A stretch of 64,000 bases of DNA from Naegleria gruberi (taxonomy: Eukaryota), in the NCBI GenBank assembly GCA_000004985.1, contig GG738854.1. The stretch is one strand, 5' to 3'. Shown piece after piece: positions 9,001 through 20,106 of the stretch. A program made the translations under genes and the position numbers. Below the pieces are notes generated by a model. That model was not told the DNA's origin, searched no databases, and was given only the letters and a program-made list of their open reading frames with translations. Within the stretch, counting starts at the first letter, position 1; the number at the start of each line of letters is the position of its first letter.

Positions 9001-12000
9001 NNNNNNNNNNNNNNNNNNNNNNNNNNNNNNNNNNNNNNNNNNNNNNNNNNNNNNNNNNNNNNNNNNNNNNNNNNNNNNNNNNNNNNNNNNNNNNNNNNNN
9101 NNNNNNNNNNNNNNNNNNNNNNNNNNNNNNNNNNNNNNNNNNNNNNNNNNNNNNNNNNNNNNNNNNNNNNNNNNNNNNNNNNNNNNNNNNNNNNNNNNNN
9201 NNNNNNNNNNNNNNNNNNNNNNNNNNNNNNNNNNNNNNNNNNNNNNNNNNNNNNNNNNNNNNNNNNNNNNNNNNNNNNNNNNNNNNNNNNNNNNNNNNNN
9301 NNNNNNNNNNNNNNNNNNNNNNNNNNNNNNNNNNNNNNNNNNNNNNNNNNNNNNNNNNNNNNNNNNNNNNNNNNNNNNNNNNNNNNNNNNNNNNNNNNNN
9401 NNNNNNNNNNNNNNNNNNNNNNNNNNNNNNNNNNNNNNNNNNNNNNNNNNNNNNNNNNNNNNNNNNNNNNNNNNNNNNNNNNNNNNNNNNNNNNNNNNNN
9501 NNNNNNNNNNNNNNNNNNNNNNNNNNNNNNNNNNNNNNNNNNNNNNNNNNNNNNNNNNNNNNNNNNNNNNNNNNNNNNNNNNNNNNNNNNNNNNNNNNNN
9601 NNNNNNNNNNNNNNNNNNNNNNNNNNNNNNNNNNNNNNNNNNNNNNNNNNNNNNNNNNNNNNNNNNNNNNNNNNNNNNNNNNNNNNNNNNNNNNNNNNNN
9701 NNNNNNNNNNNNNNNNNNNNNNNNNNNNNNNNNNNNNNNNNNNNNNNNNNNNNNNNNNNNNNNNNNNNNNNNNNNNNNNNNNNNNNNNNNNNNNNNNNNN
9801 NNNNNNNNNNNNNNNNNNNNNNNNNNNNNNNNNNNNNNNNNNNNNNNNNNNNNNNNNNNNNNNNNNNNNNNNNNNNNNNNNNNNNNNNNNNNNNNNNNNN
9901 NNNNNNNNNNNNNNNNNNNNNNNNNNNNNNNNNNNNNNNNNNNNNNNNNNNNNNNNNNNNNNNNNNNNNNNNNNNNNNNNNNNNNNNNNNNNNNNNNNNN
10001 NNNNNNNNNNNNNNNNNNNNNNNNNNNNNNNNNNNNNNNNNNNNNNNNNNNNNNNNNNNNNNNNNNNNNNNNNNNNNNNNNNNNNNNNNNNNNNNNNNNN
10101 NNNNNNNNNNNNNNNNNNNNNNNNNNNNNNNNNNNNNNNNNNNNNNNNNNNNNNNNNNNNNNNNNNNNNNNNNNNNNNNNNNNNNNNNNNNNNNNNNNNN
10201 NNNNNNNNNNNNNNNNNNNNNNNNNNNNNNNNNNNNNNNNNNNNNNNNNNNNNNNNNNNNNNNNNNNNNNNNNNNNNNNNNNNNNNNNNNNNNNNNNNNN
10301 NNNNNNNNNNNNNNNNNNNNNNNNNNNNNNNNNNNNNNNNNNNNNNNNNNNNNNNNNNNNNNNNNNNNNNNNNNNNNNNNNNNNNNNNNNNNNNNNNNNN
10401 NNNNNNNNNNNNNNNNNNNNNNNNNNNNNNNNNNNNNNNNNNNNNNNNNNNNNNNNNNNNNNNNNNNNNNNNNNNNNNNNNNNNNNNNNNNNNNNNNNNN
10501 NNNNNNNNNNNNNNNNNNNNNNNNNNNNNNNNNNNNNNNNNNNNNNNNNNNNNNNNNNNNNNNNNNNNNNNNNNNNNNNNNNNNNNNNNNNNNNNNNNNN
10601 NNNNNNNNNNNNNNNNNNNNNNNNNNNNNNNNNNNNNNNNNNNNNNNNNNNNNNNNNNNNNNNNNNNNNNNNNNNNNNNNNNNNNNNNNNNNNNNNNNNN
10701 NNNNNNNNNNNNNNNNNNNNNNNNNNNNNNNNNNNNNNNNNNNNNNNNNNNNNNNNNNNNNNNNNNNNNNNNNNNNNNNNNNNNNNNNNNNNNNNNNNNN
10801 NNNNNNNNNNNNNNNNNNNNNNNNNNNNNNNNNNNNNNNNNNNNNNNNNNNNNNNNNNNNNNNNNNNNNNNNNNNNNNNNNNNNNNNNNNNNNNNNNNNN
10901 NNNNNNNNNNNNNNNNNNNNNNNNNNNNNNNNNNNNNNNNNNNNNNNNNNNNNNNNNNNNNNNNNNNNNNNNNNNNNNNNNNNNNNNNNNNNNNNNNNNN
11001 NNNNNNNNNNNNNNNNNNNNNNNNNNNNNNNNNNNNNNNNNNNNNNNNNNNNNNNNNNNNNNNNNNNNNNNNNNNNNNNNNNNNNNNNNNNNNNNNNNNN
11101 NNNNNNNNNNNNNNNNNNNNNNNNNNNNNNNNNNNNNNNNNNNNNNNNNNNNNNNNNNNNNNNNNNNNNNNNNNNNNNNNNNNNNNNNNNNNNNNNNNNN
11201 NNNNNNNNNNNNNNNNNNNNNNNNNNNNNNNNNNNNNNNNNNNNNNNNNNNNNNNNNNNNNNNNNNNNNNNNNNNNNNNNNNNNNNNNNNNNNNNNNNNN
11301 NNNNNNNNNNNNNNNNNNNNNNNNNNNNNNNNNNNNNNNNNNNNNNNNNNNNNNNNNNNNNNNNNNNNNNNNNNNNNNNNNNNNNNNNNNNNNNNNNNNN
11401 NNNNNNNNNNNNNNNNNNNNNNNNNNNNNNNNNNNNNNNNNNNNNNNNNNNNNNNNNNNNNNNNNNNNNNNNNNNNNNNNNNNNNNNNNNNNNNNNNNNN
11501 NNNNNNNNNNNNNNNNNNNNNNNNNNNNNNNNNNNNNNNNNNNNNNNNNNNNNNNNNNNNNNNNNNNNNNNNNNNNNNNNNNNNNNNNNNNNNNNNNNNN
11601 NNNNNNNNNNNNNNNNNNNNNNNNNNNNNNNNNNNNNNNNNNNNNNNNNNNNNNNNNNNNNNNNNNNNNNNNNNNNNNNNNNNNNNNNNNNNNNNNNNNN
11701 NNNNNNNNNNNNNNNNNNNNNNNNNNNNNNNNNNNNNNNNNNNNNNNNNNNNNNNNNNNNNNNNNNNNNNNNNNNNNNNNNNNNNNNNNNNNNNNNNNNN
11801 NNNNNNNNNNNNNNNNNNNNNNNNNNNNNNNNNNNNNNNNNNNNNNNNNNNNNNNNNNNNNNNNNNNNNNNNNNNNNNNNNNNNNNNNNNNNNNNNNNNN
11901 NNNNNNNNNNNNNNNNNNNNNNNNNNNNNNNNNNNNNNNNNNNNNNNNNNNNNNNNNNNNNNNNNNNNNNNNNNNNNNNNNNNNNNNNNNNNNNNNNNNN

Positions 12001-12464
12001 NNNNNNNNNNNNNNNNNNNNNNNNNNNNNNNNNNNNNNNNNNNNNNNNNNNNNNNNNNNNNNNNNNNNNNNNNNNNNNNNNNNNNNNNNNNNNNNNNNNN
12101 NNNNNNNNNNNNNNNNNNNNNNNNNNNNNNNNNNNNNNNNNNNNNNNNNNNNNNNNNNNNNNNNNNNNNNNNNNNNNNNNNNNNNNNNNNNNNNNNNNNN
12201 NNNNNNNNNNNNNNNNNNNNNNNNNNNNNNNNNNNNNNNNNNNNNNNNNNNNNNNNNNNNNNNNNNNNNNNNNNNNNNNNNNNNNNNNNNNNNNNNNNNN
12301 NNNNNNNNNNNNNNNNNNNNNNNNNNNNNNNNNNNNNNNNNNNNNNNNNNNNNNNNNNNNNNNNNNNNNNNNNNNNNNNNNNNNNNNNNNNNNNNNNNNN
12401 NNNNNNNNNNNNNNNNNNNNNNNNNNNNNNNNNNNNNNNNNNNNNNNNNNNNNNNNNNNNNNNN
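1..12464. other. Assembly gap (run of N)
   Basis: Uninterrupted n characters. No sequence is available, so nothing can be annotated here. Confidence 0.99.
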
Positions 12465-12581: not shown

Positions 12582-14015
12582 ATGTCTGACTCATCAACTA
12601 GTAATGATAATAGTAATAATAATAAATTAGAAATTGAATTTAAACAAGCACAAGACTTTATTCAAAATGCACCAGCAGAAAAAGAACCATCCAATGAACA
12701 AAAATTACAATTTTATGCTTTTTATAAACAAGCAACACAAGGACAAGTTAGTGGTATGTTATTATTATATTGTATTCTTGTAGTATTAATATTAATAATA
12801 ATAATTAAAATTTTATTCATTGATCATGATTATCATCAACTGTCATCACACACATATTAAAATATATTATTTAAAATATATTATTAAAATGATGATAAAA
12901 AGGAAAGAGACCAGGTGCATTTGATATTATTAATAGAGCAAAATATGATGCTTGGAAAAAACTTGGTTCTCTAACTAAAGAACAAGCAATGAAATCATAT
13001 ATTACTACTCTTGAACAATCTTCACCTAATTGGAGAAGTTATTTTACTACAAATAATACAAATACAAATAATAACAATTCAATTACAATTAATCCCTACA
13101 GTGGACCGTGGTGGTAATGATAATAATAATAATTCTAATAATACAACATCAACAACAACAACAATTGGTATTATAAATAATGTAAATGATGAAATCTTTA
13201 AAAAAGATTTATTACGTGGTAAAGTAATAATTGTAACAGGAGGAGGTAGTGGTATATGTTATGGTATAACACAATATTTACAATTATATGGAGCACATAC
13301 AGCTATAATATCACGTACATTTGATAAATTAGAAAAGGCTTCAAAAGAAATTATGAAAATAGCCAATAATAATACAATATGTTTACCTGTTTCAGCTGAT
13401 GTTAGAGATTATAAAGCATTATCTAATGCATTTGATAAAGTATTGGAAAGATTTGGTAGAATTGATGTATTAATTAATGGAAGTGCTGGTAATTTTCTAT
13501 GTCCTGCTTCACATTTAACACCAGGTGGATTTAAAACTGTGATGGAAATTGATACATTTGGAACATTTAATGCCTCTAAATTAGCCTATGATAAATATAT
13601 GAAATTGAATGGTGGTGGTAATATTATAAATCTATCCATGACATTACATAATACTGCAACTATAATGCAAGTACATGCAGGATGTGCTAAATCTGCCATT
13701 GATACAATGACTAAACATTTAGCAGTTGAATGGGGATTAGATCAAGTACGTGTTAATTCAATTCAAATTGGTCCTATTGAAGGTACTGAAGGATTTTCAA
13801 GATTACTTCCACAAGATGAATTGAAAAGATATAAGGAAATGATACCACTTCAAAGATTTGGTCTACCAATTGATATTGCTAGAATGGTACTATTTTTAAT
13901 ATCAGATGCTGCCTCTTATGTTACTGGTGCTATTATACCTGTTGAAGGTGCTTCACAATTTACTACAAGTAATATTCATGGTTATCCAAATGCTTTGAAA
14001 ATGTCTAAATTGTAA
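12582..14015 (+). CDS. ACBP-domain protein fused to peroxisomal 2,4-dienoyl-CoA reductase (SDR family) with a C-terminal SKL PTS1. Proposed exons 12582..12753, 12903..13037, 13102..14015.
   Basis: Exon 1-2 carry the ACBP signature (FKQAQDFIQNAPAEKEPSNEQKLQFYAFYKQATQGQVSG|KRPGAFDIINRAKYDAWKKLG...AMKSYI) across a GTATGT...AG intron (12754..12902, phase 1). The downstream frame-0 ORF (…DEIFKKDLLRGKVIIVTGGGSGIC…GNFLCPA…VHAGCAKSAIDTMTKHLAVEWG…YVTGAIIPVEGA…SKL) aligns with DECR2-type reductases throughout. It has no in-frame ATG before the Rossmann motif, so it needs an upstream exon. A phase-1 splice (donor GTTATT at 13038, acceptor ccctacag at 13101) creates ...SPNWR-M-DRGGND... in frame. The second donor is non-consensus, so the fusion itself is less certain than the two domains. 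Confidence 0.6.
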
Positions 14016-14188: not shown

Positions 14189-15078
14189 NNNNNNNNNNNN
14201 NNNNNNNNNNNNNNNNNNNNNNNNNNNNNNNNNNNNNNNNNNNNNNNNNNNNNNNNNNNNNNNNNNNNNNNNNNNNNNNNNNNNNNNNNNNNNNNNNNNN
14301 NNNNNNNNNNNNNNNNNNNNNNNNNNNNNNNNNNNNNNNNNNNNNNNNNNNNNNNNNNNNNNNNNNNNNNNNNNNNNNNNNNNNNNNNNNNNNNNNNNNN
14401 NNNNNNNNNNNNNNNNNNNNNNNNNNNNNNNNNNNNNNNNNNNNNNNNNNNNNNNNNNNNNNNNNNNNNNNNNNNNNNNNNNNNNNNNNNNNNNNNNNNN
14501 NNNNNNNNNNNNNNNNNNNNNNNNNNNNNNNNNNNNNNNNNNNNNNNNNNNNNNNNNNNNNNNNNNNNNNNNNNNNNNNNNNNNNNNNNNNNNNNNNNNN
14601 NNNNNNNNNNNNNNNNNNNNNNNNNNNNNNNNNNNNNNNNNNNNNNNNNNNNNNNNNNNNNNNNNNNNNNNNNNNNNNNNNNNNNNNNNNNNNNNNNNNN
14701 NNNNNNNNNNNNNNNNNNNNNNNNNNNNNNNNNNNNNNNNNNNNNNNNNNNNNNNNNNNNNNNNNNNNNNNNNNNNNNNNNNNNNNNNNNNNNNNNNNNN
14801 NNNNNNNNNNNNNNNNNNNNNNNNNNNNNNNNNNNNNNNNNNNNNNNNNNNNNNNNNNNNNNNNNNNNNNNNNNNNNNNNNNNNNNNNNNNNNNNNNNNN
14901 NNNNNNNNNNNNNNNNNNNNNNNNNNNNNNNNNNNNNNNNNNNNNNNNNNNNNNNNNNNNNNNNNNNNNNNNNNNNNNNNNNNNNNNNNNNNNNNNNNNN
15001 NNNNNNNNNNNNNNNNNNNNNNNNNNNNNNNNNNNNNNNNNNNNNNNNNNNNNNNNNNNNNNNNNNNNNNNNNNNNNN
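14189..15078. other. Assembly gap (run of N)
   Basis: Uninterrupted n characters. The 13982..15094 minus 'ORF' in the track is an artefact of this gap. Confidence 0.99.
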
Positions 15079-15240
15079 TGGAAATATGAAACACAGAAAA
15101 AACTTGCTAAAAAACCAGCTCTTCCACTTTTATCTTATCAAACTGGAAAGAAAATTGAATGTACAAGATATGGAAATAATTCAATTTTTATTTCTTATGA
15201 AAATGAAAATTATATTGAAAAGATTGATATGAAAATTTAA
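15079..15240 (+). CDS. 3' terminal fragment of a plus-strand gene whose upstream part lies in the gap (…WKYETQKKLAKKPALPLLSYQTGKKIECTRYGNNSIFISYENENYIEKIDMKI*)
   Basis: The frame is open from the gap edge to TAA at 15238..15240. The sequence looks protein-like, but a second frame is also open in this AT-rich stretch. No family assignment is possible. Confidence 0.25.
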   Translation, partial: WKYETQKKLAKKPALPLLSYQTGKKIECTRYGNNSIFISYENENYIEKIDMKI

Positions 15241-15265
15241 TACATTAATATTATTTATTATTTTT

Positions 15266-17479
15266 TTATACAATTTCATCATATTTCTTATTCATCCATG
15301 GATGTTTTAATGCTTGTCGTACATCCAATCTATCTAGAGGATCAATTTGTAAACATTGTCTTATAAAATCTACAAATTCTTCATCTTGACAATTATCTAA
15401 TTTTTCTCGAATATCTTGATTATAATCTGGTATCAATAATTCCTCATAGACATTATCATTTGGTCCAATTTGACCAACTCCTGATGGTGGAATTGTTTTA
15501 CCTGTATCTTTATCTACATATCTAAATAATACATATTCAGTTCTTCCATTAATTTTAACCTTTTTGAAAAAGTCTTTAACAAATCTTCCTCTTTGTAATT
15601 GATGTAATTTGAATGGTCCACATAAAGATAATATCTTGGCTAACATTGTCTGTATCGAATGATTGTAAAACAATACTTTGCCTGTAAACAATTCAGCTAA
15701 AATACAACCAATAGACCAAATATCAATCTTTTCATCATAATCACTTCCAATGACAACTTCAGGTGCTCTATATGTTCTTGATTGAGCATATAATGGTAAA
15801 TTATCCCATTTGAAACATGATGAACCAAAATCAATAATCTTAACTTGACATCTACTATAGGATTTGATTAATATATTTTCAGGTTTCAAATCACAATGAA
15901 TCAAATTAAGTGAATGAACAAATTGTAATGCAGTTAATACTATTTGATGATAATATCATGATTGAATTATTAGATGTTAGATGATGACCAATGAAAAACA
16001 ACTTACATTGTTGAGTAACTTTTTGAAGTCTTGGAAGATTAAAATACAATTCATCACCACTATCTCTATTGTAAACATAAAATTCATACAAGTTATCTCT
16101 TAACAATTCACAAACAATGAACAGATGTTCCTTATAATAGAAAAAGTCATGTAACTTGATAACATGGAAAGCATCTGGATCACCCATACTATTAATAAAT
16201 CTTAGTAATTTGATTTCATCTAAACTTTGATCAAAGAAATCCTTATCATTCTTAATAATCTTAATGCAAACGTTTTGATTGGTTCTTAAATCCAAACATT
16301 GAATTGCTCTGCTAAAAGTTGCACTTCCTAGATATTCAACAACTTGATATCTTTCAGCAATAATTGAATCAACTTCAATTTTGAATTCATTTGTTTCTTC
16401 GAATCCAGTTTTAAATGTTTCTCTTATAATTGGAAGATAAATAGTTTCATATTCAACTGGTGGTCTCCATTTTGTTCTTCTATCTACAACTTCTGGTGCT
16501 TCTTCTTCAATATAAGATGGAACACAATTTTGTAAAACATCTGTTTGAGAAAAATCAGTTAATCTTGAATATCCTTCATCATCACTATCACTTGCATAAT
16601 CATCATCCTTGGCATCTTTATCTGGTTTTTCCTTCTTTGTTTCTGCTGATTTTGGTTTTTCTTTAGATTCCTTAGGGTATTTATGAGCTTCAACTTGTTG
16701 TTCAAGTTCTCTCAAATCATTTTCAACATTCTTTTCAAATGTTTCATATAAATCCTCCGAAGTGAAAGGATTTGATAGTTCTACTGGTTCATCACCACTT
16801 TCATACATGTGAGCAAATTCTTGTAATTCTTTCATCAATGAGGCACTATCTGGTCTTTCATATTCATCTTCCTCAAAAGATTGTTTTGAAGTTCTAGACT
16901 GTCCTGTAAGAACTCTCTTTGCACTATTTGTTGGAGTAATTCTATGATTGTAGTGTTTTGTATCTGGTACATGATGTTGATGGTTGTAGAAATCGGAAAC
17001 TACACTTTGTACAATATCATTAACAATTTCGCATATATCATTGTATTCAGATTCAGAAACAATATTATTTACGAGGGAATATGATTTTAAAGAGTGTTGA
17101 GGAGAAGTTTGAATAACCTCTGTTGGTTCTGCTGATGTTTCCATTGTTTTAACTGTTCAATAAAATTCCGTTAATGTATTTTCAATAACTATTAGGATCA
17201 TCAACAACACTTACTACTTGATTTTAATTCTTCCATCAATTTTTCAGCTGTTTGATTTAATTTGTTCTCCCTAAGGAAGTTCAAAAAGATACCTAACATT
17301 TCTTGTTCATCATTCAACTTCTTTTCATCTAAATCATATTGTTTTAGGAATGAACTATTTGAATCTTGTGTTGTATTTAAAATATCGTCCTCTTCATAGT
17401 CTTCATATTCAGAGTCTGAATCATCTGCATTATAAGGCTCTAATTGTTGTACCTCATTAAGTGCGCTGTTGGAATACAT
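15266..17479 (-). CDS. DYRK-family (CMGC) protein kinase. The kinase exons are 16007..17152 and 15266..15939, with a proposed 5' exon 17215..17479 encoding a LisH-like motif.
   Basis: The kinase domain is split by a 67-bp GTAAGT..AG intron (15940..16006, phase 1): ...YQVVEYLGSATFSRAIQC...VCIKIIKNDKDFFDQSLDEIKLL...LPRLQKVTQQ|LLTALQFVHSLNLIHCDLKPENILIK...IIDFGSSCF...YAQSRTYRAPEV. An ATG at 17142..17144 opens the long ORF. The upstream small ORF (ATG 17477..17479, …NDEQEMLGIFLNFLRENKLNQTAEKLMEELKSS) ends exactly at a GTAAGT donor (17214). A ttgaacag acceptor (17153/17154) sits 9 nt before the kinase ATG. Splicing at phase 1 joins it in frame (…ELKSS-I-KTMETSAEPTEV…). Confidence 0.75.
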
Positions 17480-17523
17480 TTTTTTTGATAAAATTATTTA
17501 GCAATATTTTTGTAGACTGAGAA

Positions 17524-17551
17524 TGGCGCCAAATTATTTACATTGGCGCCA
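17524..17551. promoter_or_regulatory. Pair of identical palindromic octamers TGGCGCCA (17524..17531 and 17544..17551) in the divergent promoter region
   Basis: Two perfect self-complementary GC-rich 8-mers 20 bp apart sit in an otherwise AT-rich intergenic region. The region lies between the minus-strand kinase gene start (17479) and the tRNA-His / plus-strand RBR gene. Confidence 0.4.
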
Positions 17552-17867
17552 AAATGTTATCTTTTGTTTTATAGTCTTACTCAATAAAATAAATTGGACT
17601 CTAAAAATACAAATTATGAGCTAATTGAACAAATCAGTCTTTCTTTGTTAGCCTTACTCAAACTACATATTGCCTCGACCGTAGTAATATCTCTTGGAAT
17701 TTTATAAAAAGAAACGCATACAGTTTGTCGTTGAATTGAGTAAACAACATGGCAAAAACACCAGAATTTAAAATCCTTAGAGATCTACTATTATGTCTAA
17801 TATTTAAAGATAAAGGCCTTTTGCTTGGAGCGCGTTCTAATTTTTCGTGTAACATAACAAACAACAA

Positions 17868-17938
17868 AGGGAGATAGTTCAGTGGTAGAACATGGGATTG
17901 TGGTTCCTAAGATCAGGGTTCGATTCCCTGTCTTCCTA
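17868..17938 (+). tRNA. tRNA-His (anticodon GTG)
   Basis: The cloverleaf folds by eye. The acceptor stem is AGGGAGA/TCTTCCT (one G-T pair). The D arm is GTTC-AGTGGTA-GAAC. The anticodon stem is TGGGA/TCCTA with loop TTGTGGT. The T arm is CAGGG-TTCGATT-CCCTG, and the discriminator is A. It is followed by T-rich tracts (Pol III termination). G-1 is not encoded, as is usual for eukaryotic tRNA-His. Confidence 0.85.
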
Positions 17939-18022
17939 CTCATTTTTATTTTAGATTTTTCAACAATTTTATTTCAGAAATGCAACTTCAATATTTGTTG
18001 ATCTAATAATATTACAGAAAAA

Positions 18023-20106
18023 ATGTCACAACTATTAGAAAACCTCAAAGATTTATTTCCCTCCATTGACATTGAAGTAATAGAATCAGTTATTGATCAA
18101 GTTGATAATGATGAAGAGGCTGCCATTGAATTACTAGTACAAATTAATGAAGATGATGAAGATCTTGATGAAATTAACAATGTTCCGAACAATACTTTTA
18201 ATGACAAAACTAATGATGATATCAATAATGATGATGATTTATTAGAACAAGAAACTTTTGATGATCATGAATTTTCCAATCAAGTATCATCATCGTCTAC
18301 AAAAAACAAGCCTTCCTCCTCTACTACTACTACTACTTCCACTTCTAAAAGTAGTAGTAGTAAAAAATTATATCAAATACTTGATGAAGAAGGAATATTA
18401 AATGAAATTAATAATACAATGAATCAAGTTTTAAATATATTACAAATTAATAATAATAATAGTAATTTTAAATTAGAAATGATATTAAAAAACTATAAAT
18501 GGAATGTTGAAAATATTATTAGAGATTATGGTGATATTGGATTGGATGGTATTTTAAAAAAAATTGGTTTATTAAATAATTTAAATACTACTATAAATAG
18601 TAATAATAATAATAATAATAATATTACAACAACAACAATAACAACAATATGTGAATCATGTTATGAAGATAATATAGAATTAATTAAAAATATAAATTGT
18701 GAACATTCATTATGTGAATCATGTTGGAGAAATTATATAGAATCATCAATTTTACAAAATAATGGAACAAGTATTGAAAGTATTAAATGTCCATCCTATG
18801 AATGTAATTGTCTATTATTAGATGAATTTATTTTATCATTTATAACAAGTAAATATGAACATTTTCTATTAAAAAGTAAAATTAATTCATTCATGACAAA
18901 TTCACATCGAATGAAATGGTGTTCAAATAATTGTAAATTTGCAATTAAAAAGGAATGTGATGAAAATTTATATTATTGTAAATGTAAATGTGATAGAGAA
19001 TTTTGTTTTCATTGTGATCAAGATCCACATTATCCAGGTATGTTTATTTTTATTTTATTTTAATATATTTAAACTATTTAAACTATTTAAAATATTATTG
19101 TAAACTATTTAACATTACAATAACAACAATACAATAACATTACAATAACATTACAAAAATATAACAAAACATAATAATAGCAACATGTGAAATGATGAAA
19201 AGATTTATATCATTTACAAAAGAACATGAATCTAATTTAGAATATATTAAATCAACATGTCAACAATGTCCATCATGTAAAGTTTATGTTCATCGTATTA
19301 GTGGATGTGATAGTATGGTATGTGGATATTGTGGTACTAGATTTTGTTATATTTGTGGACAATCATCACATGGATATCAATCTATTTGTGTTGGACAATC
19401 TACTACTCTATTAGGAAGTAAAAAAGTTAGTGAATTTGATTTATATGTAGAAGAAGCACATGCTAGATTTAATTATAAATATAAATTATATACTAATTGG
19501 TTACAATCTCCAAATACACATTCTAATTTAATTTTTTATAATTTGGAAAATTCAGCACTTTTTGAATTTGGATATTTAAAAAATGATTTTAAAATATTTT
19601 ATTCTGCATTAAATTTAATAATTAGAACTAGAAGATTATTAAGATCATTATGTGTATTTGCATTTGTTTCATTTGGATTTGATAAATTATTAATGGAAAG
19701 TTTATTAAAAAATATTAAAAATACAAAAAAAAATAAGAAAAATAATAATACAAATATGGAACAAGATTTAACTTTATTAAAAACATTTGGATATTTATTT
19801 GATATGAATTATGAAAGATTGGAAAAATTTGTTGATCAATTACTTTCCATTTTAAGAAATTTTACACAAACACCTCAAGAAGAATTAGAAGAACAAGAAG
19901 AATTAGAAAAATTAAATTCTACTAATAATGGAAATATTAAAAATTATAGTAACATGTTTGAATTTGGAAATTCTTTATTTACACAAGAAAAACATTTAAA
20001 ATTTCATAATTTAAATTCACAAATTAAAAATCAAATGGAATTAATTGTAAAACAAACTGAAAATATTATTGATATGATTAAATCAATGGAAATGAAAACT
20101 ATTTAA
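18023..20106 (+). CDS. RBR (RING-between-RING, Ariadne-type) E3 ubiquitin ligase with an N-terminal CUE/UBA-like motif. Exons 18023..19037 and 19181..20106.
   Basis: The N-terminus is LKDLFPSIDIEVIESVIDQVDNDEEAAIELLV (CUE-like). RING1 is CESCYED..CEHSLCESCW and the IBR is KCPSYECN…CSNNCKFAIKKECDE…CKCKCDREFCFHCD. An intron (GTATGT at 19038 to aatag at 19180, 143 bp, phase 1) is followed by RING2/Rcat (CQQCPSCKVYVHRISGCDSMVCGYCGTRFCYICGQ). A helical Ariadne-like C-terminal domain follows. Confidence 0.8.
19064..19180 (+). repeat. Short tandem/simple repeats inside the RBR gene intron (aaactattta x3; acaataacattac x2)
   Basis: The repeats are visible directly in the intron sequence. They are low-complexity AT-rich intronic repeats. 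Confidence 0.6.

What the first reader, a model, noticed from the sequence alone, without database searches (positions are those of the whole stretch)
15266..17479. LisH-like 5' exon spliced in frame to a DYRK kinase
An 87-codon ORF ending …NDEQEMLGIFLNFLRENKLNQTAEKLMEELKSS stops precisely at a GTAAGT donor. Sixty-two bp further on, a ttgaacag acceptor lies 9 nt upstream of the kinase ATG. Splicing is in frame. The exon carries a LisH-like dimerisation motif (L..LI..YL...G...TA..L..E pattern) plus an acidic Tyr-rich stretch (DSDSEYEDYEEDD). I am not aware of a LisH motif being a described DYRK accessory domain. It would imply dimerisation or tethering control of this kinase.
Basis: partly seen in the sequence, partly recalled or inferred. 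Interest (0 to 1): 0.5.

Follow-up and report, generated by a model that had tools for sequence, protein, structure and literature searches.

The report
LisH-tagged DYRK kinase gene in Naegleria
This is an ordinary three-exon Naegleria gene for a plant-type (DYRKP-class) DYRK protein kinase; its first exon carries a short LisH dimerisation-type motif that turns out to be standard, though apparently overlooked, N-terminal equipment of this whole kinase class.

Summary
On the minus strand, exon 1 (17479-17215, 88 codons plus 1 nt) ends at a GTAAGT donor. A 62-nt intron ends in AACAG, and exon 2 continues in frame. A second intron (16006-15940) splits the kinase domain. The product is a 694-aa DYRK kinase.

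The N. fowleri and N. lovaniensis orthologues (74% and 73% identity) are annotated with the same N-terminal exon and both introns. A Naegleria-like metagenome contig encodes the LisH segment and the kinase in one uninterrupted ORF.

The LisH call scores below Pfam's threshold on the single sequence (16-17 bits against 21.6). It is supported at family level:
- hhalign against bona fide LisH motifs gives 95% probability, against at most 0.7% for shuffled controls.
- The best PDB hits are TAF5, WDR47, SMU1 and TOPLESS, each aligned at its LisH.
- AlphaFold predicts a confident helix-turn-helix.

The motif is not peculiar to this gene. At least 73 of 120 closest homologues carry it at their N-terminus, including plant DYRKPs, ciliates, dinoflagellates and Euglena. 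No paper in the searchable library mentions both LisH and DYRKP.

No RNA evidence was available, and dimerisation is inferred, not shown. Verdict: a real, correctly read gene and a new member of a known kinase class, with a modest annotation insight.

The parts
17524..17553 (.). Possible promoter element. Two copies of TTTGGCGCC(A), an E2F-consensus-like and partly palindromic motif, lie 74 and 54 nt upstream of the start codon.
   Evidence: These are the only GGCGCC sites in the 64-kb window. TTGGCGCCA gives 3 strand-matches against 0.02 expected. The same core lies at -67 in N. fowleri and N. lovaniensis and at -15 in L001. Function was not tested.
17215..17479 (-). Exon 1: start codon, acidic disordered leader and LisH motif (88 codons plus the first base of codon 89).
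   Evidence: It is included in the orthologue gene models P0001 and P0002 and in the continuous ORF of P0003.
17384..17428 (-). Acidic Tyr/Ser-rich stretch ADDSDSEYEDYEEDD (aa 18-32), followed by the Naegleria-conserved LNTTQDS.
   Evidence: The corresponding region of the orthologue is predicted disordered, with pLDDT below 40.
17216..17305 (-). LisH-like motif QEMLGIFLNFLRENKLNQTAEKLMEELKSS (aa 59-88). The Pfam match core is aa 66-84 (17284-17228).
   Evidence: Pfam LisH scores 16.1-17.4 bits (cut-off 21.6) and LisH_TPL 20.4-22.1 bits (cut-off 30.7). The family profile against bona fide LisH motifs gives hhalign probability 95.1% and E 3.4e-8, with controls at most 0.7%. PDB hits are TAF5, WDR47, SMU1 and TPL at their LisH. 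AF2 predicts a helix-turn-helix with pLDDT 79-90 in the orthologue.
17153..17214 (-). Intron 1: 62 nt, GTAAGT...TTAAC...AACAG, phase 1.
   Evidence: Phase-1 GTAAGT introns lie at nearly the same site in N. fowleri (63 nt) and N. lovaniensis (about 79 nt), with unrelated intron sequences.
16007..17152 (-). Exon 2: low-complexity linker, DH-box-like motif, pre-kinase region and the N-lobe of the kinase.
16560..16607 (-). DH-box-like acidic motif DDDYASDSDDEGYSRL (aa 271-286).
   Evidence: It matches the family consensus DEYxDDDDxGY. A pattern of this type is present in 69 of 120 homologues. The corresponding orthologue segment has pLDDT of about 88.
15940..16006 (-). Intron 2: 67 nt, GTAAGT...CTAAC...AATAG, phase 1, inside the kinase domain.
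   Evidence: It lies at the same position in N. fowleri and N. lovaniensis and is absent in L001.
15266..15939 (-). Exon 3: catalytic loop HCDLKPEN, DFGSSC, activation loop, CMGC insert, C-lobe and stop codon.
15293..16349 (-). Protein kinase domain (aa 357-686), interrupted by intron 2.
   Evidence: Pfam Pkinase scores 2.3e-51. The closest solved structures are DYRK2 and DYRK3. The closest sequences are DYRKP-type kinases.
15758..15796 (-). Activation loop PLYAQSRTYRAPE. The tyrosine equivalent to the second Tyr of the DYRK YxY is kept. The first is Pro.
   Evidence: Alignment to DYRK2. Across the family the first position is SxY 87, TxY 8, CxY 3, PxY 3 (Naegleria only) and never YxY.

Best explanation
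The interval is one three-exon, minus-strand gene of a Naegleria genome. The organism is most likely N. gruberi or a very close relative; this is inferred. The gene encodes a 694-aa CMGC kinase of the DYRK family, of the 'plant-type' DYRKP-like class.

Layout of the protein:
- an acidic, disordered leader (aa 1-55);
- a LisH helix-turn-helix motif (aa about 59-90), encoded at the very end of exon 1;
- a long, mostly disordered linker;
- a DH-box-like acidic motif (aa 271-286) and a conserved pre-kinase segment;
- the kinase domain (aa 357-686).

Shown here: the exon structure is compatible with the sequence and conserved in orthologues. The LisH segment and the kinase belong to one polypeptide in relatives. 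The motif is homologous to LisH at the profile level and is a family-wide N-terminal feature.

Inferred: transcription starts upstream of 17479, possibly driven by the conserved TTTGGCGCC element. Both introns are spliced.

Inferred from what LisH does in LIS1, TBL1, TOPLESS, SMU1 and Katnal2: the motif forms a four-helix-bundle homodimer, or pairs with another LisH protein. The kinase would then act as a dimer or as a tethered enzyme. This could affect its stability, its localisation, or trans-interactions between the two catalytic domains. I put this functional step at roughly 50-60%.

The catalytic domain itself would mature like other DYRKs, by one-off autophosphorylation of the conserved activation-loop tyrosine (Y521). 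This is established knowledge for the family and was not tested here.
For: Gene structure:
- Searches give exact donor and acceptor sites, in-frame phase-1 joins, and a stop codon in the intron.
- N. fowleri FDP41_007097 (P0001, 700 aa) and N. lovaniensis C9374_008130 (P0002, 702 aa) cover 98-99% of the spliced protein at 73-74% identity, including the exon-1 part. Their loci have introns at the equivalent sites.
- Contig L001 (P0003) carries the LisH segment and the kinase in a single 2094-nt ORF.
- Codon-position pattern shows purifying selection on the LisH segment.
- Met92, the 'kinase ATG', is not conserved.
- A conserved GC-rich motif lies upstream of exon 1 only.

LisH:
- On exon 1 the only significant non-kinase Pfam hits are LisH-clan families.
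- Among 60 family N-termini the families matched are LisH (9), LisH_PAC1 (7, best E 1.1e-5), LisH_TPL (5) and LisH_WDR26 (1).
- The family profile's best PDB hits are TAF5, WDR47, SMU1, TPR1/TOPLESS and SPAG16, aligned at the N-terminal motif region.
- hhalign against 8 validated LisH motifs gives 95.1% probability over 30 columns in register. The reversed alignment gives 0.3% and 30 column shuffles give at most 0.7%.
- AF2 predicts helix 70-96, a turn, and helix 100-118 at pLDDT 79-90 in the orthologue.

Family-wide presence:
- 40 of 120 homologues match a crude regex, and 73 of 120 match a small HMM. The motif is almost always within the first 60 residues.
- These include the Marchantia MpDYRKP gene product, Chlorokybus, Stentor, Blepharisma, Euglena and dinoflagellate transcript-derived proteins. 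The Tetrahymena homologue (P0087) was not picked up by the regex or the HMM and had no LisH-clan Pfam hit; its N-terminus only looks similar by eye.

Kinase class:
- DYRKP-type hits score 410-487 bits at 50-58% identity. Human DYRK2 scores 214 bits.
- The fold matches DYRK2 and PRP4.
Against: - No RNA evidence for this organism. The exon-junction 28-mer was not found in the metagenome and metatranscriptome collection, and no 100%-identical full-length protein is on record.
- The single-sequence LisH scores are below Pfam's gathering thresholds. So are those of every representative tested, including Marchantia MpDYRKP.
- The PDB profile hits are individually marginal (E 0.025-4).
- Intron composition (73-75% A+T) is no richer than the exons, so composition gives no independent support for the introns.
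- Dimerisation was not modelled or measured.
- The activation loop is PxY, not the C/SxY described for DYRKPs.
Confidence: 0.82

Rival explanations
1. Two separate expression units. Exon 1 would be an independent small ORF of 92 aa (a LisH micro-protein or an upstream ORF). The kinase would be translated from ATG 17144 as a roughly 600-aa protein without LisH. The in-frame splice would be coincidental or used only in a minor isoform.
For: Unspliced, exon 1 is a closed 92-codon ORF, and the exon-2 ORF begins with its own ATG 8 nt after the acceptor. A prokaryote-style gene caller produced exactly that kinase-only product on a 99%-identical contig (P0004). No transcript evidence was available. 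The Marchantia paper reports MpDYRKP splice variants that all differ in the N-terminal region, so N-terminal isoforms exist in this class.
Against: Met92 is not conserved in any orthologue. Both annotated Naegleria orthologues join the exons. L001 has the two parts in one ORF with no possibility of separation. A 62-nt interval is too short to hold a terminator plus a promoter. The conserved upstream motif lies before exon 1. The LisH motif sits on the same polypeptide as the kinase in dozens of distant, transcript-derived homologues.
Confidence: 0.07
2. The gene structure is right, but the N-terminal motif is not a true LisH. It would be a generic amphipathic helical hairpin or short coiled coil that resembles LisH by composition, with some other role such as a docking helix or a degron.
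For: Every Pfam LisH-clan score in this family is sub-threshold. Only about a third or fewer of the 60 N-termini reach E<=0.01 for any LisH model. PDB profile E-values are marginal. A profile search of the 5.8-billion-protein database returned nothing at E<=1e-3. The motif is only about 30 residues long.
Against: The sub-threshold hits go almost exclusively to LisH-clan models. 15 of the 20 best PDB hits are known LisH proteins, aligned in register at their LisH. hhalign gives 95% probability against at most 0.7% for reversed or shuffled controls of identical composition. The predicted secondary structure has the LisH helix-turn-helix spacing.
Confidence: 0.1

Closest known systems
DYRKP ('plant-type') DYRK kinases: Marchantia MpDYRKP (Mp3g19940), Chlamydomonas DYRKP/STD1, Arabidopsis DYRKP-1 to -3. 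NCBI automatic names for relatives include 'ppk5-like' and 'DYRK-family kinase pom1'.
   Same: - The kinase domain is 50-58% identical, at 410-487 bits.
- The pre-kinase RTGFEE segment and the acidic DH-like motif are shared.
- The first activation-loop Tyr is lost.
- The conserved N-terminal motif is shared: VNAILEYLRKHNFSEAENALRSEL in MpDYRKP against MLGIFLNFLRENKLNQTAEKLMEEL here.
   Different: - The organism is a heterolobosean amoeboflagellate, not a plant or alga.
- The activation loop is PxY rather than C/SxY.
- The LisH is preceded by a 55-85-aa acidic leader found only in Naegleria.
- The protein is much shorter than land-plant DYRKPs (694 aa against about 1040-1160 aa).
- No rooted phylogeny was made here.
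Human DYRK2 / DYRK3 (closest solved structures)
   Same: CMGC kinase fold, HCDLKPEN, DFGSSC, the conserved autophosphorylated Tyr, and a CMGC insert (214 bits; Foldseek E 8e-30).
   Different: Only about 31-35% identity in the structural alignment. DYRK2 has YTY in the activation loop. To my knowledge DYRK2 has NAPA regions rather than a LisH at the N-terminus (recalled, not tested).
LisH motif proteins: LIS1/PAC1, TBL1, SMU1, TOPLESS/TPR1, TAF5, WDR47, GID8/TWA1, RanBP9, OFD1, FOP
   Same: A motif of about 30 residues with the pattern hydrophobic-x2-hydrophobic-hydrophobic-x2-[YFW]-L-x3-G/N-hydrophobic-x2-[ST]-A-x2-L-x2-E, at the N-terminus, predicted as helix-turn-helix.
   Different: - In those proteins the motif usually precedes CTLH and/or WD40 modules; here it precedes a protein kinase.
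- No CTLH was detected.
- Scores are below the curated Pfam cut-offs.
- Dimerisation is untested.
Katnal2 (LisH + AAA ATPase)
   Same: The design is analogous: an N-terminal LisH, a poorly conserved linker and a C-terminal enzymatic domain. In Tetrahymena the LisH-containing fragment is reported to matter for localisation, dimerisation and stability (title and abstract of PMC7072489, listed).
   Different: The catalytic domain is unrelated. This is an analogy for mechanism only, not homology of the whole protein.

Membership tests
DYRK family (CMGC kinases) | Protein kinase domain with CMGC/DYRK signatures (HCDLKPEN catalytic loop, DFGSSC) | tested here: met
   Pfam Pkinase scores 2.3e-51 over aa 357-686. 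HCDLKPEN is at aa 485-492 and DFGSSCF at aa 507-513. The best solved matches are DYRK2 and DYRK3, then PRP4 and DYRK1A/B.
DYRK family (CMGC kinases) | Activation-loop tyrosine that is autophosphorylated (second Tyr of YxY) | tested here: met
   PLY-AQSRTYRAPE aligns with DYRK2 YTY-IQSRFYRAPE, so the second Tyr is conserved and the first is Pro. Phosphorylation itself is not testable here.
DYRK family (CMGC kinases) | DH (DYRK-homology) box, an acidic motif N-terminal to the kinase domain | tested here: inconclusive
   DDDYASDSDDEGYSRL (aa 271-286) matches the subfamily consensus DEYxDDDDxGY and is confidently modelled in the orthologue. It was not aligned directly to the DH boxes of DYRK1A or DYRK2.
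DYRKP subgroup | Kinase domain closer to DYRKPs than to the DYRK1, DYRK2, YAK, PRP4 or HIPK groups | tested here: met
   MpDYRKP (P0081) scores E 2.6e-118 at 51% identity, and other plant DYRKP-type proteins score up to 487 bits. DYRK2 scores 214 bits, PRP4 182 and DYRK1A 175. The comparison is by scores only; no phylogeny was made.
DYRKP subgroup | Activation loop C/SxY instead of YxY (as stated in PMC8514375) | tested here: not met
   The window protein and its three Naegleria-type orthologues have PxY. The other homologues have SxY (87), TxY (8), CxY (3) and GxY (1), and none has YxY. The loss of the first Tyr is shared but the residue differs. I therefore call the protein DYRKP-like rather than a strict member.
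DYRKP subgroup | Conserved N-terminal sequence motifs shared among DYRKPs (MEME motifs in PMC8514375) | tested here: met
   The N-terminal LisH-like motif aligns between the window protein, MpDYRKP and other plant sequences. I could not see the paper's figure to confirm that this is the same motif.
LisH motif (Pfam clan: LisH, LisH_TPL, LisH_PAC1, LisH_2) | Score at or above the curated Pfam gathering threshold | tested here: not met
   LisH scores 12.6 to 17.4 bits against a cut-off of 21.6. LisH_TPL scores 17.7 to 22.1 bits against 30.7. None of 10 representatives reaches threshold.
LisH motif (Pfam clan: LisH, LisH_TPL, LisH_PAC1, LisH_2) | Profile-level homology to bona fide LisH motifs, in register | tested here: met
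   hhalign of the family profile A3 against A4 gives probability 95.1% and E 3.4e-8 over 30 columns. A4 holds 8 LisH motifs, each validated above Pfam threshold. Reversed and shuffled controls give at most 0.7%. PDB hits TAF5, WDR47, SMU1 and TPR1/TPL align at their LisH.
LisH motif (Pfam clan: LisH, LisH_TPL, LisH_PAC1, LisH_2) | Two short alpha-helices joined by a tight turn | tested here: met
   The AF2 model of the N. fowleri orthologue has helix 70-96, a turn at 97-99 and helix 100-118, with pLDDT 79-90. The flanks are disordered.
LisH motif (Pfam clan: LisH, LisH_TPL, LisH_PAC1, LisH_2) | Homodimerisation through an antiparallel four-helix bundle | not testable with these tools
   Only single-chain prediction is offered. 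The test needs a multimer model or SEC-MALS, AUC or two-hybrid assays.

The most novel reading that the evidence does not exclude
The short conserved N-terminal motif of all DYRKP-type kinases may be a cryptic LisH dimerisation motif that standard Pfam annotation misses. [quoted passage not shown] LisH-kinase would then be an ancient architecture found in Heterolobosea, Euglenozoa, ciliates, dinoflagellates and green plants, and 'plant-specific' would be a misnomer for this class. LisH-mediated dimerisation, or tethering to other LisH/CTLH-type complexes, would be its ancestral mode of regulation.
Probability: 0.45. Interest if true: 0.45.

Novelty: new member of a known kind. Interest (0 to 1): 0.3.

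Why it matters
For this locus, the result gives the correct gene model: three exons and 694 aa, rather than the kinase-only ORF that naive gene calling yields.

More broadly, DYRKP kinases control biomass, starch and oil accumulation and cell-wall remodelling in Chlamydomonas, and cell morphology in Marchantia (titles and abstracts seen). Their long N-terminal regions are described as lacking known domains. Recognising the conserved N-terminal motif as LisH gives a concrete, cheap hypothesis to test: dimerisation- or partner-dependent control of stability, localisation or activity. It also shows that this kinase class extends well beyond plants. It does not reveal a new kind of system.

Tried and rejected
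- **Dictyostelid origin.** My first guess, from the A+T-rich, Asn-rich neighbours, was rejected. The best hits are Naegleria.
- **Pfam scan of 75 full-length homologues.** I replaced it with 60 N-terminal segments.
- **Motif profile against the 5.8-billion-protein database.** Nothing at E<=1e-3; the motif is too short for that database size.
- **Exon1-exon2 junction 28-mer in metagenome and metatranscriptome contigs.** No match.
- **Related loci in metagenome contigs.** 80 loci were returned, but none is a further full-length Naegleria orthologue. L080 is a C-terminal fragment only.
- **Literature searches.** I searched LisH+DYRK, DYRKP+LisH, LisH+ppk5, 'LisH domain'+'kinase domain'+DYRK, LisH+kinome and LisH+DYRK+Arabidopsis. 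All co-mentions concern RanBPM or DCAF1 as DYRK partners, not a LisH inside a DYRK.
- **Naegleria+E2F search.** Gave nothing on promoter motifs.
- **Separate-gene and generic-helix readings.** Considered and given low weight (see rivals).
- **Foldseek of the full model.** It only recovers the kinase fold. It says nothing about LisH.
Full report
**1. What is in the sequence**

Reading the minus strand of 14800-17900 and listing ORFs shows three collinear coding pieces. A script fixed the boundaries.
- Exon 1 is 17479..17215, 265 nt, which is 88 codons plus one base.
- Intron 1 is 17214..17153, 62 nt, GTAAGT...AACAG.
- Exon 2 is 17152..16007, 1146 nt.
- Intron 2 is 16006..15940, 67 nt, GTAAGT...AATAG.
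- Exon 3 is 15939..15266, including the stop codon.

Both introns are phase 1. Splicing both gives a 2085-nt CDS and a 694-aa protein.

Left unspliced, exon 1 runs into a stop four codons after the donor. The exon-2 frame is closed by a TGA inside the intron.

Intron 2 must be removed to reconstitute the kinase catalytic core (...LQKVTQQ|LLTALQFVHSLNLIHCDLKPEN...). It has the same donor hexamer, phase and size as intron 1, so it is a useful internal standard. Composition does not distinguish introns from exons here: 73-75% A+T against 69-72%.

**2. Whose gene it is**

The spliced protein finds Naegleria fowleri FDP41_007097 (P0001, 700 aa, 74% identity, 99% coverage) and N. lovaniensis C9374_008130 (P0002, 702 aa, 73% identity, 98% coverage). 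It also finds a 697-aa protein from a JGI metagenome contig (P0003, 72% identity) and a 414-aa ENA product at 99% identity (P0004).

P0004 is simply the unspliced exon-2 ORF, read into intron 2 by a prokaryote-style gene caller. It sits on a genomic metagenome contig that is 99% identical to window 17374..15305. The window is therefore from a Naegleria, most likely N. gruberi or a very close relative. This is an inference; no record names it.

**3. Is exon 1 part of the kinase gene?**

Five lines of evidence say yes.
1. The two annotated orthologues include the N-terminal part. The segment EMLG(I/L/M)FLNFLR(E/D)N(K/E)L(N/S)(Q/E)TA(E/D)KL(M/I)(E/Q)EL(K/R) is nearly invariant among the four Naegleria-type sequences.
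2. Mapping the orthologue proteins back onto their loci shows a phase-1 GTAAGT intron just after the LisH segment: 63 nt in N. fowleri and about 79 nt in N. lovaniensis. Its sequence is unrelated to the window's intron. A second phase-1 intron lies at exactly the window's intron-2 site.
3. In contig L001 the whole protein, LisH segment included, is one uninterrupted 2094-nt ORF. At the intron-1 site it has a 42-nt GTAAGT...TTCAG stretch that is in frame and stop-free. The two parts are therefore joined whether or not that stretch is spliced.
4. Across the 30 codons of the LisH segment, window against N. fowleri differs at 19 third, 7 first and 1 second codon positions, with 5 mostly conservative amino-acid changes. 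That is the signature of a translated, constrained sequence.
5. The 'kinase ATG' (Met92) is not conserved in the orthologues.

In addition, the only two GGCGCC sites in the 64-kb window form a pair of TTTGGCGCC(A) motifs 54 and 74 nt upstream of ATG 17479. The same core sits upstream of the start codon in all three related loci. This is consistent with a promoter in front of exon 1.

Direct RNA evidence is missing.

**4. Is the motif a LisH?**

On the single sequence the answer is 'suggestive'. LisH_TPL scores E 4e-4 at 20.4 bits, and LisH scores E 0.011 at 16.1 bits. These are the top non-kinase hits, but both are below the curated cut-offs of 30.7 and 21.6 bits.

The motif is not a Naegleria oddity, however. 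A crude pattern finds it at the N-terminus of 40 of the 120 best homologues. A small HMM finds it in 73 of 120. Visual inspection of the N-termini shows it in the following:
- land plants, including the Marchantia MpDYRKP gene product P0081 (VNAILEYLRKHNFSEAENALRSEL);
- Chlorokybus and a pedinophyte;
- Stentor, Blepharisma and, by eye only, Tetrahymena (its N-terminus was not picked up by the regex or HMM and gave no LisH-clan Pfam hit);
- Euglena;
- many dinoflagellate and other protist transcript-derived proteins.

Most homologues without it are visibly N-terminally truncated fragments.

I aligned 60 non-redundant N-termini (A3) and ran four tests.
- **Pfam, member by member.** The hits go essentially only to LisH-clan models: LisH 9 members, LisH_PAC1 7 (best E 1.1e-5), LisH_TPL 5 and LisH_WDR26 1.
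- **Family profile against all PDB sequences.** The top hits are TAF5, WDR47, SMU1, TPR1/TOPLESS and SPAG16, aligned at the N-terminal motif region. Individual E-values are marginal, from 0.025 to 4.
- **Profile against profile.** Each scores above Pfam threshold for a LisH-clan model. After aligning them (A4), hhalign of A3 against A4 gives 95.1% probability and E 3.4e-8 over 30 columns in register. The reversed A4 gives 0.3%, and 30 column-shuffled versions give at most 0.7%.
- **Structure prediction.** An AlphaFold2 model of the N. fowleri orthologue, built with 75 homologues, has a disordered leader (1-71, pLDDT below 40). It then has helix 70-96, a three-residue turn and helix 100-118 at pLDDT 79-90, exactly over the motif. 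A mostly low-confidence linker and a high-confidence kinase domain follow.

I conclude that the motif is a genuine but divergent LisH. None of ten representatives, MpDYRKP included, reaches Pfam's threshold. [quoted passage not shown]

**5. Which kinase?**

Pfam Pkinase covers aa 357-686. The closest sequences are DYRKP-type proteins at 410-487 bits and 50-58% identity over the kinase half. They include MpDYRKP (Mp3g19940, named; P0081).

Among solved structures, DYRK2 and DYRK3 come first at 214 bits, then PRP4 and DYRK1A/B. Foldseek with the model agrees.

DYRK hallmarks are present: HCDLKPEN, DFGSSC, the conserved activation-loop Tyr, and an acidic DH-like motif DDDYASDSDDEGY that matches the subfamily consensus. 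The first Tyr of YxY is absent in the whole subfamily: SxY 87, TxY 8, CxY 3, GxY 1. The Naegleria clade alone has PxY. Because the published DYRKP description is C/SxY, and because I made no rooted tree, I call the protein DYRKP-like rather than a strict member.

**6. How it most likely works**

Shown: there is one polypeptide with an N-terminal LisH and a C-terminal DYRK domain. The LisH is under purifying selection and is conserved across very distant eukaryotes.

Inferred from established LisH biology (LIS1, TBL1, TOPLESS and SMU1 dimers) and from the Katnal2 abstract listed: the motif dimerises the kinase or docks it to another LisH protein. This would influence stability, localisation or trans-acting contacts between catalytic domains. 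The kinase domain would mature by the usual DYRK tyrosine autophosphorylation. I rate the gene model at about 0.9, the LisH homology at about 0.85 and the dimerisation function at about 0.5-0.6.

**7. Rivals**

- Exon 1 as a separate micro-ORF, with a LisH-less kinase starting at Met92. This is disfavoured by points 1-5 of section 3.
- The motif as a generic amphipathic hairpin. This is disfavoured by the register-specific, control-validated profile match.

**8. Novelty**

The gene is an orthologue of already annotated, though 'hypothetical', Naegleria proteins that have the same exon structure. It belongs to a known kinase class, so it is a new member of a known kind.

The modest surplus is the domain assignment. 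In 7.7 million PMC papers and 0.34 million preprints, no paper mentions both DYRKP and LisH, or ppk5 and LisH. All LisH+DYRK co-mentions concern RanBPM or DCAF1 as partners of animal DYRKs. I could not query SMART, PROSITE or InterPro, which may already flag the motif.

The breadth of taxa carrying the LisH-kinase layout also sits awkwardly with the label 'plant-specific' used for DYRKP.

Noticed in passing
window 17524-17553 (also L002 about 3934, L003 about 3934, L001 about 368): Two copies of TTTGGCGCC(A), which resembles the E2F consensus and is partly palindromic (TTGGCGCCAA), lie 74 and 54 nt upstream of the start codon. They are the only GGCGCC sites in the 64-kb window. The same core is conserved upstream of the orthologous start codons, with an adjacent TTTGGGCGGGAAAA in N. 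fowleri and TTTGGCGGTAAAA in N. lovaniensis. This may be a conserved promoter element that is cell-cycle or differentiation regulated.
   Followed up: partly
window 17868-17939 (+): A tRNA-His (GTG) gene lies about 390 nt upstream of the kinase gene on the opposite strand. The intergenic stretch 17480-17950 has unusually high G+C (0.30-0.34) for non-coding DNA in this window.
   Followed up: no
L001 706-747 (contig Ga/3300002220 MLSBCLC_10158276): At the position of intron 1, the Naegleria-like relative has a 42-nt GTAAGT...TTCAG stretch that is in frame and free of stops. It is either an unusually short intron or an intron being exonised. The same gene has lost intron 2 altogether.
   Followed up: partly
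window ~12000-12400 and ~14200-15078: Runs of N mark assembly gaps. The second begins about 190 nt beyond the kinase stop codon and truncates whatever convergent gene lies downstream. In N. fowleri and N. lovaniensis that neighbour is a WD40/THOC3-like gene.
   Followed up: no
window 13011-14015 (+): A short-chain dehydrogenase/enoyl-reductase ORF (adh_short_C2, E 2.6e-43) ends in -SKL, a peroxisomal PTS1-type tripeptide. It has an Asn/Thr-rich low-complexity N-terminal extension.
   Followed up: partly
window 18023-20106 (+): This divergent neighbour encodes a CUE domain plus two IBR half-RING domains (an RBR-type E3 ubiquitin ligase). It is split into two ORFs, probably by one intron at about 19064-19191. 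Upstream synteny with N. fowleri and N. lovaniensis is not conserved: they have an LRR protein there.
   Followed up: partly
P0001-P0003 and window protein, activation loop (window 15758-15796): Only the Naegleria clade has Pro at the position of the first activation-loop tyrosine (PxY). 99 other homologues have S/T/C/GxY and none has YxY.
   Followed up: yes
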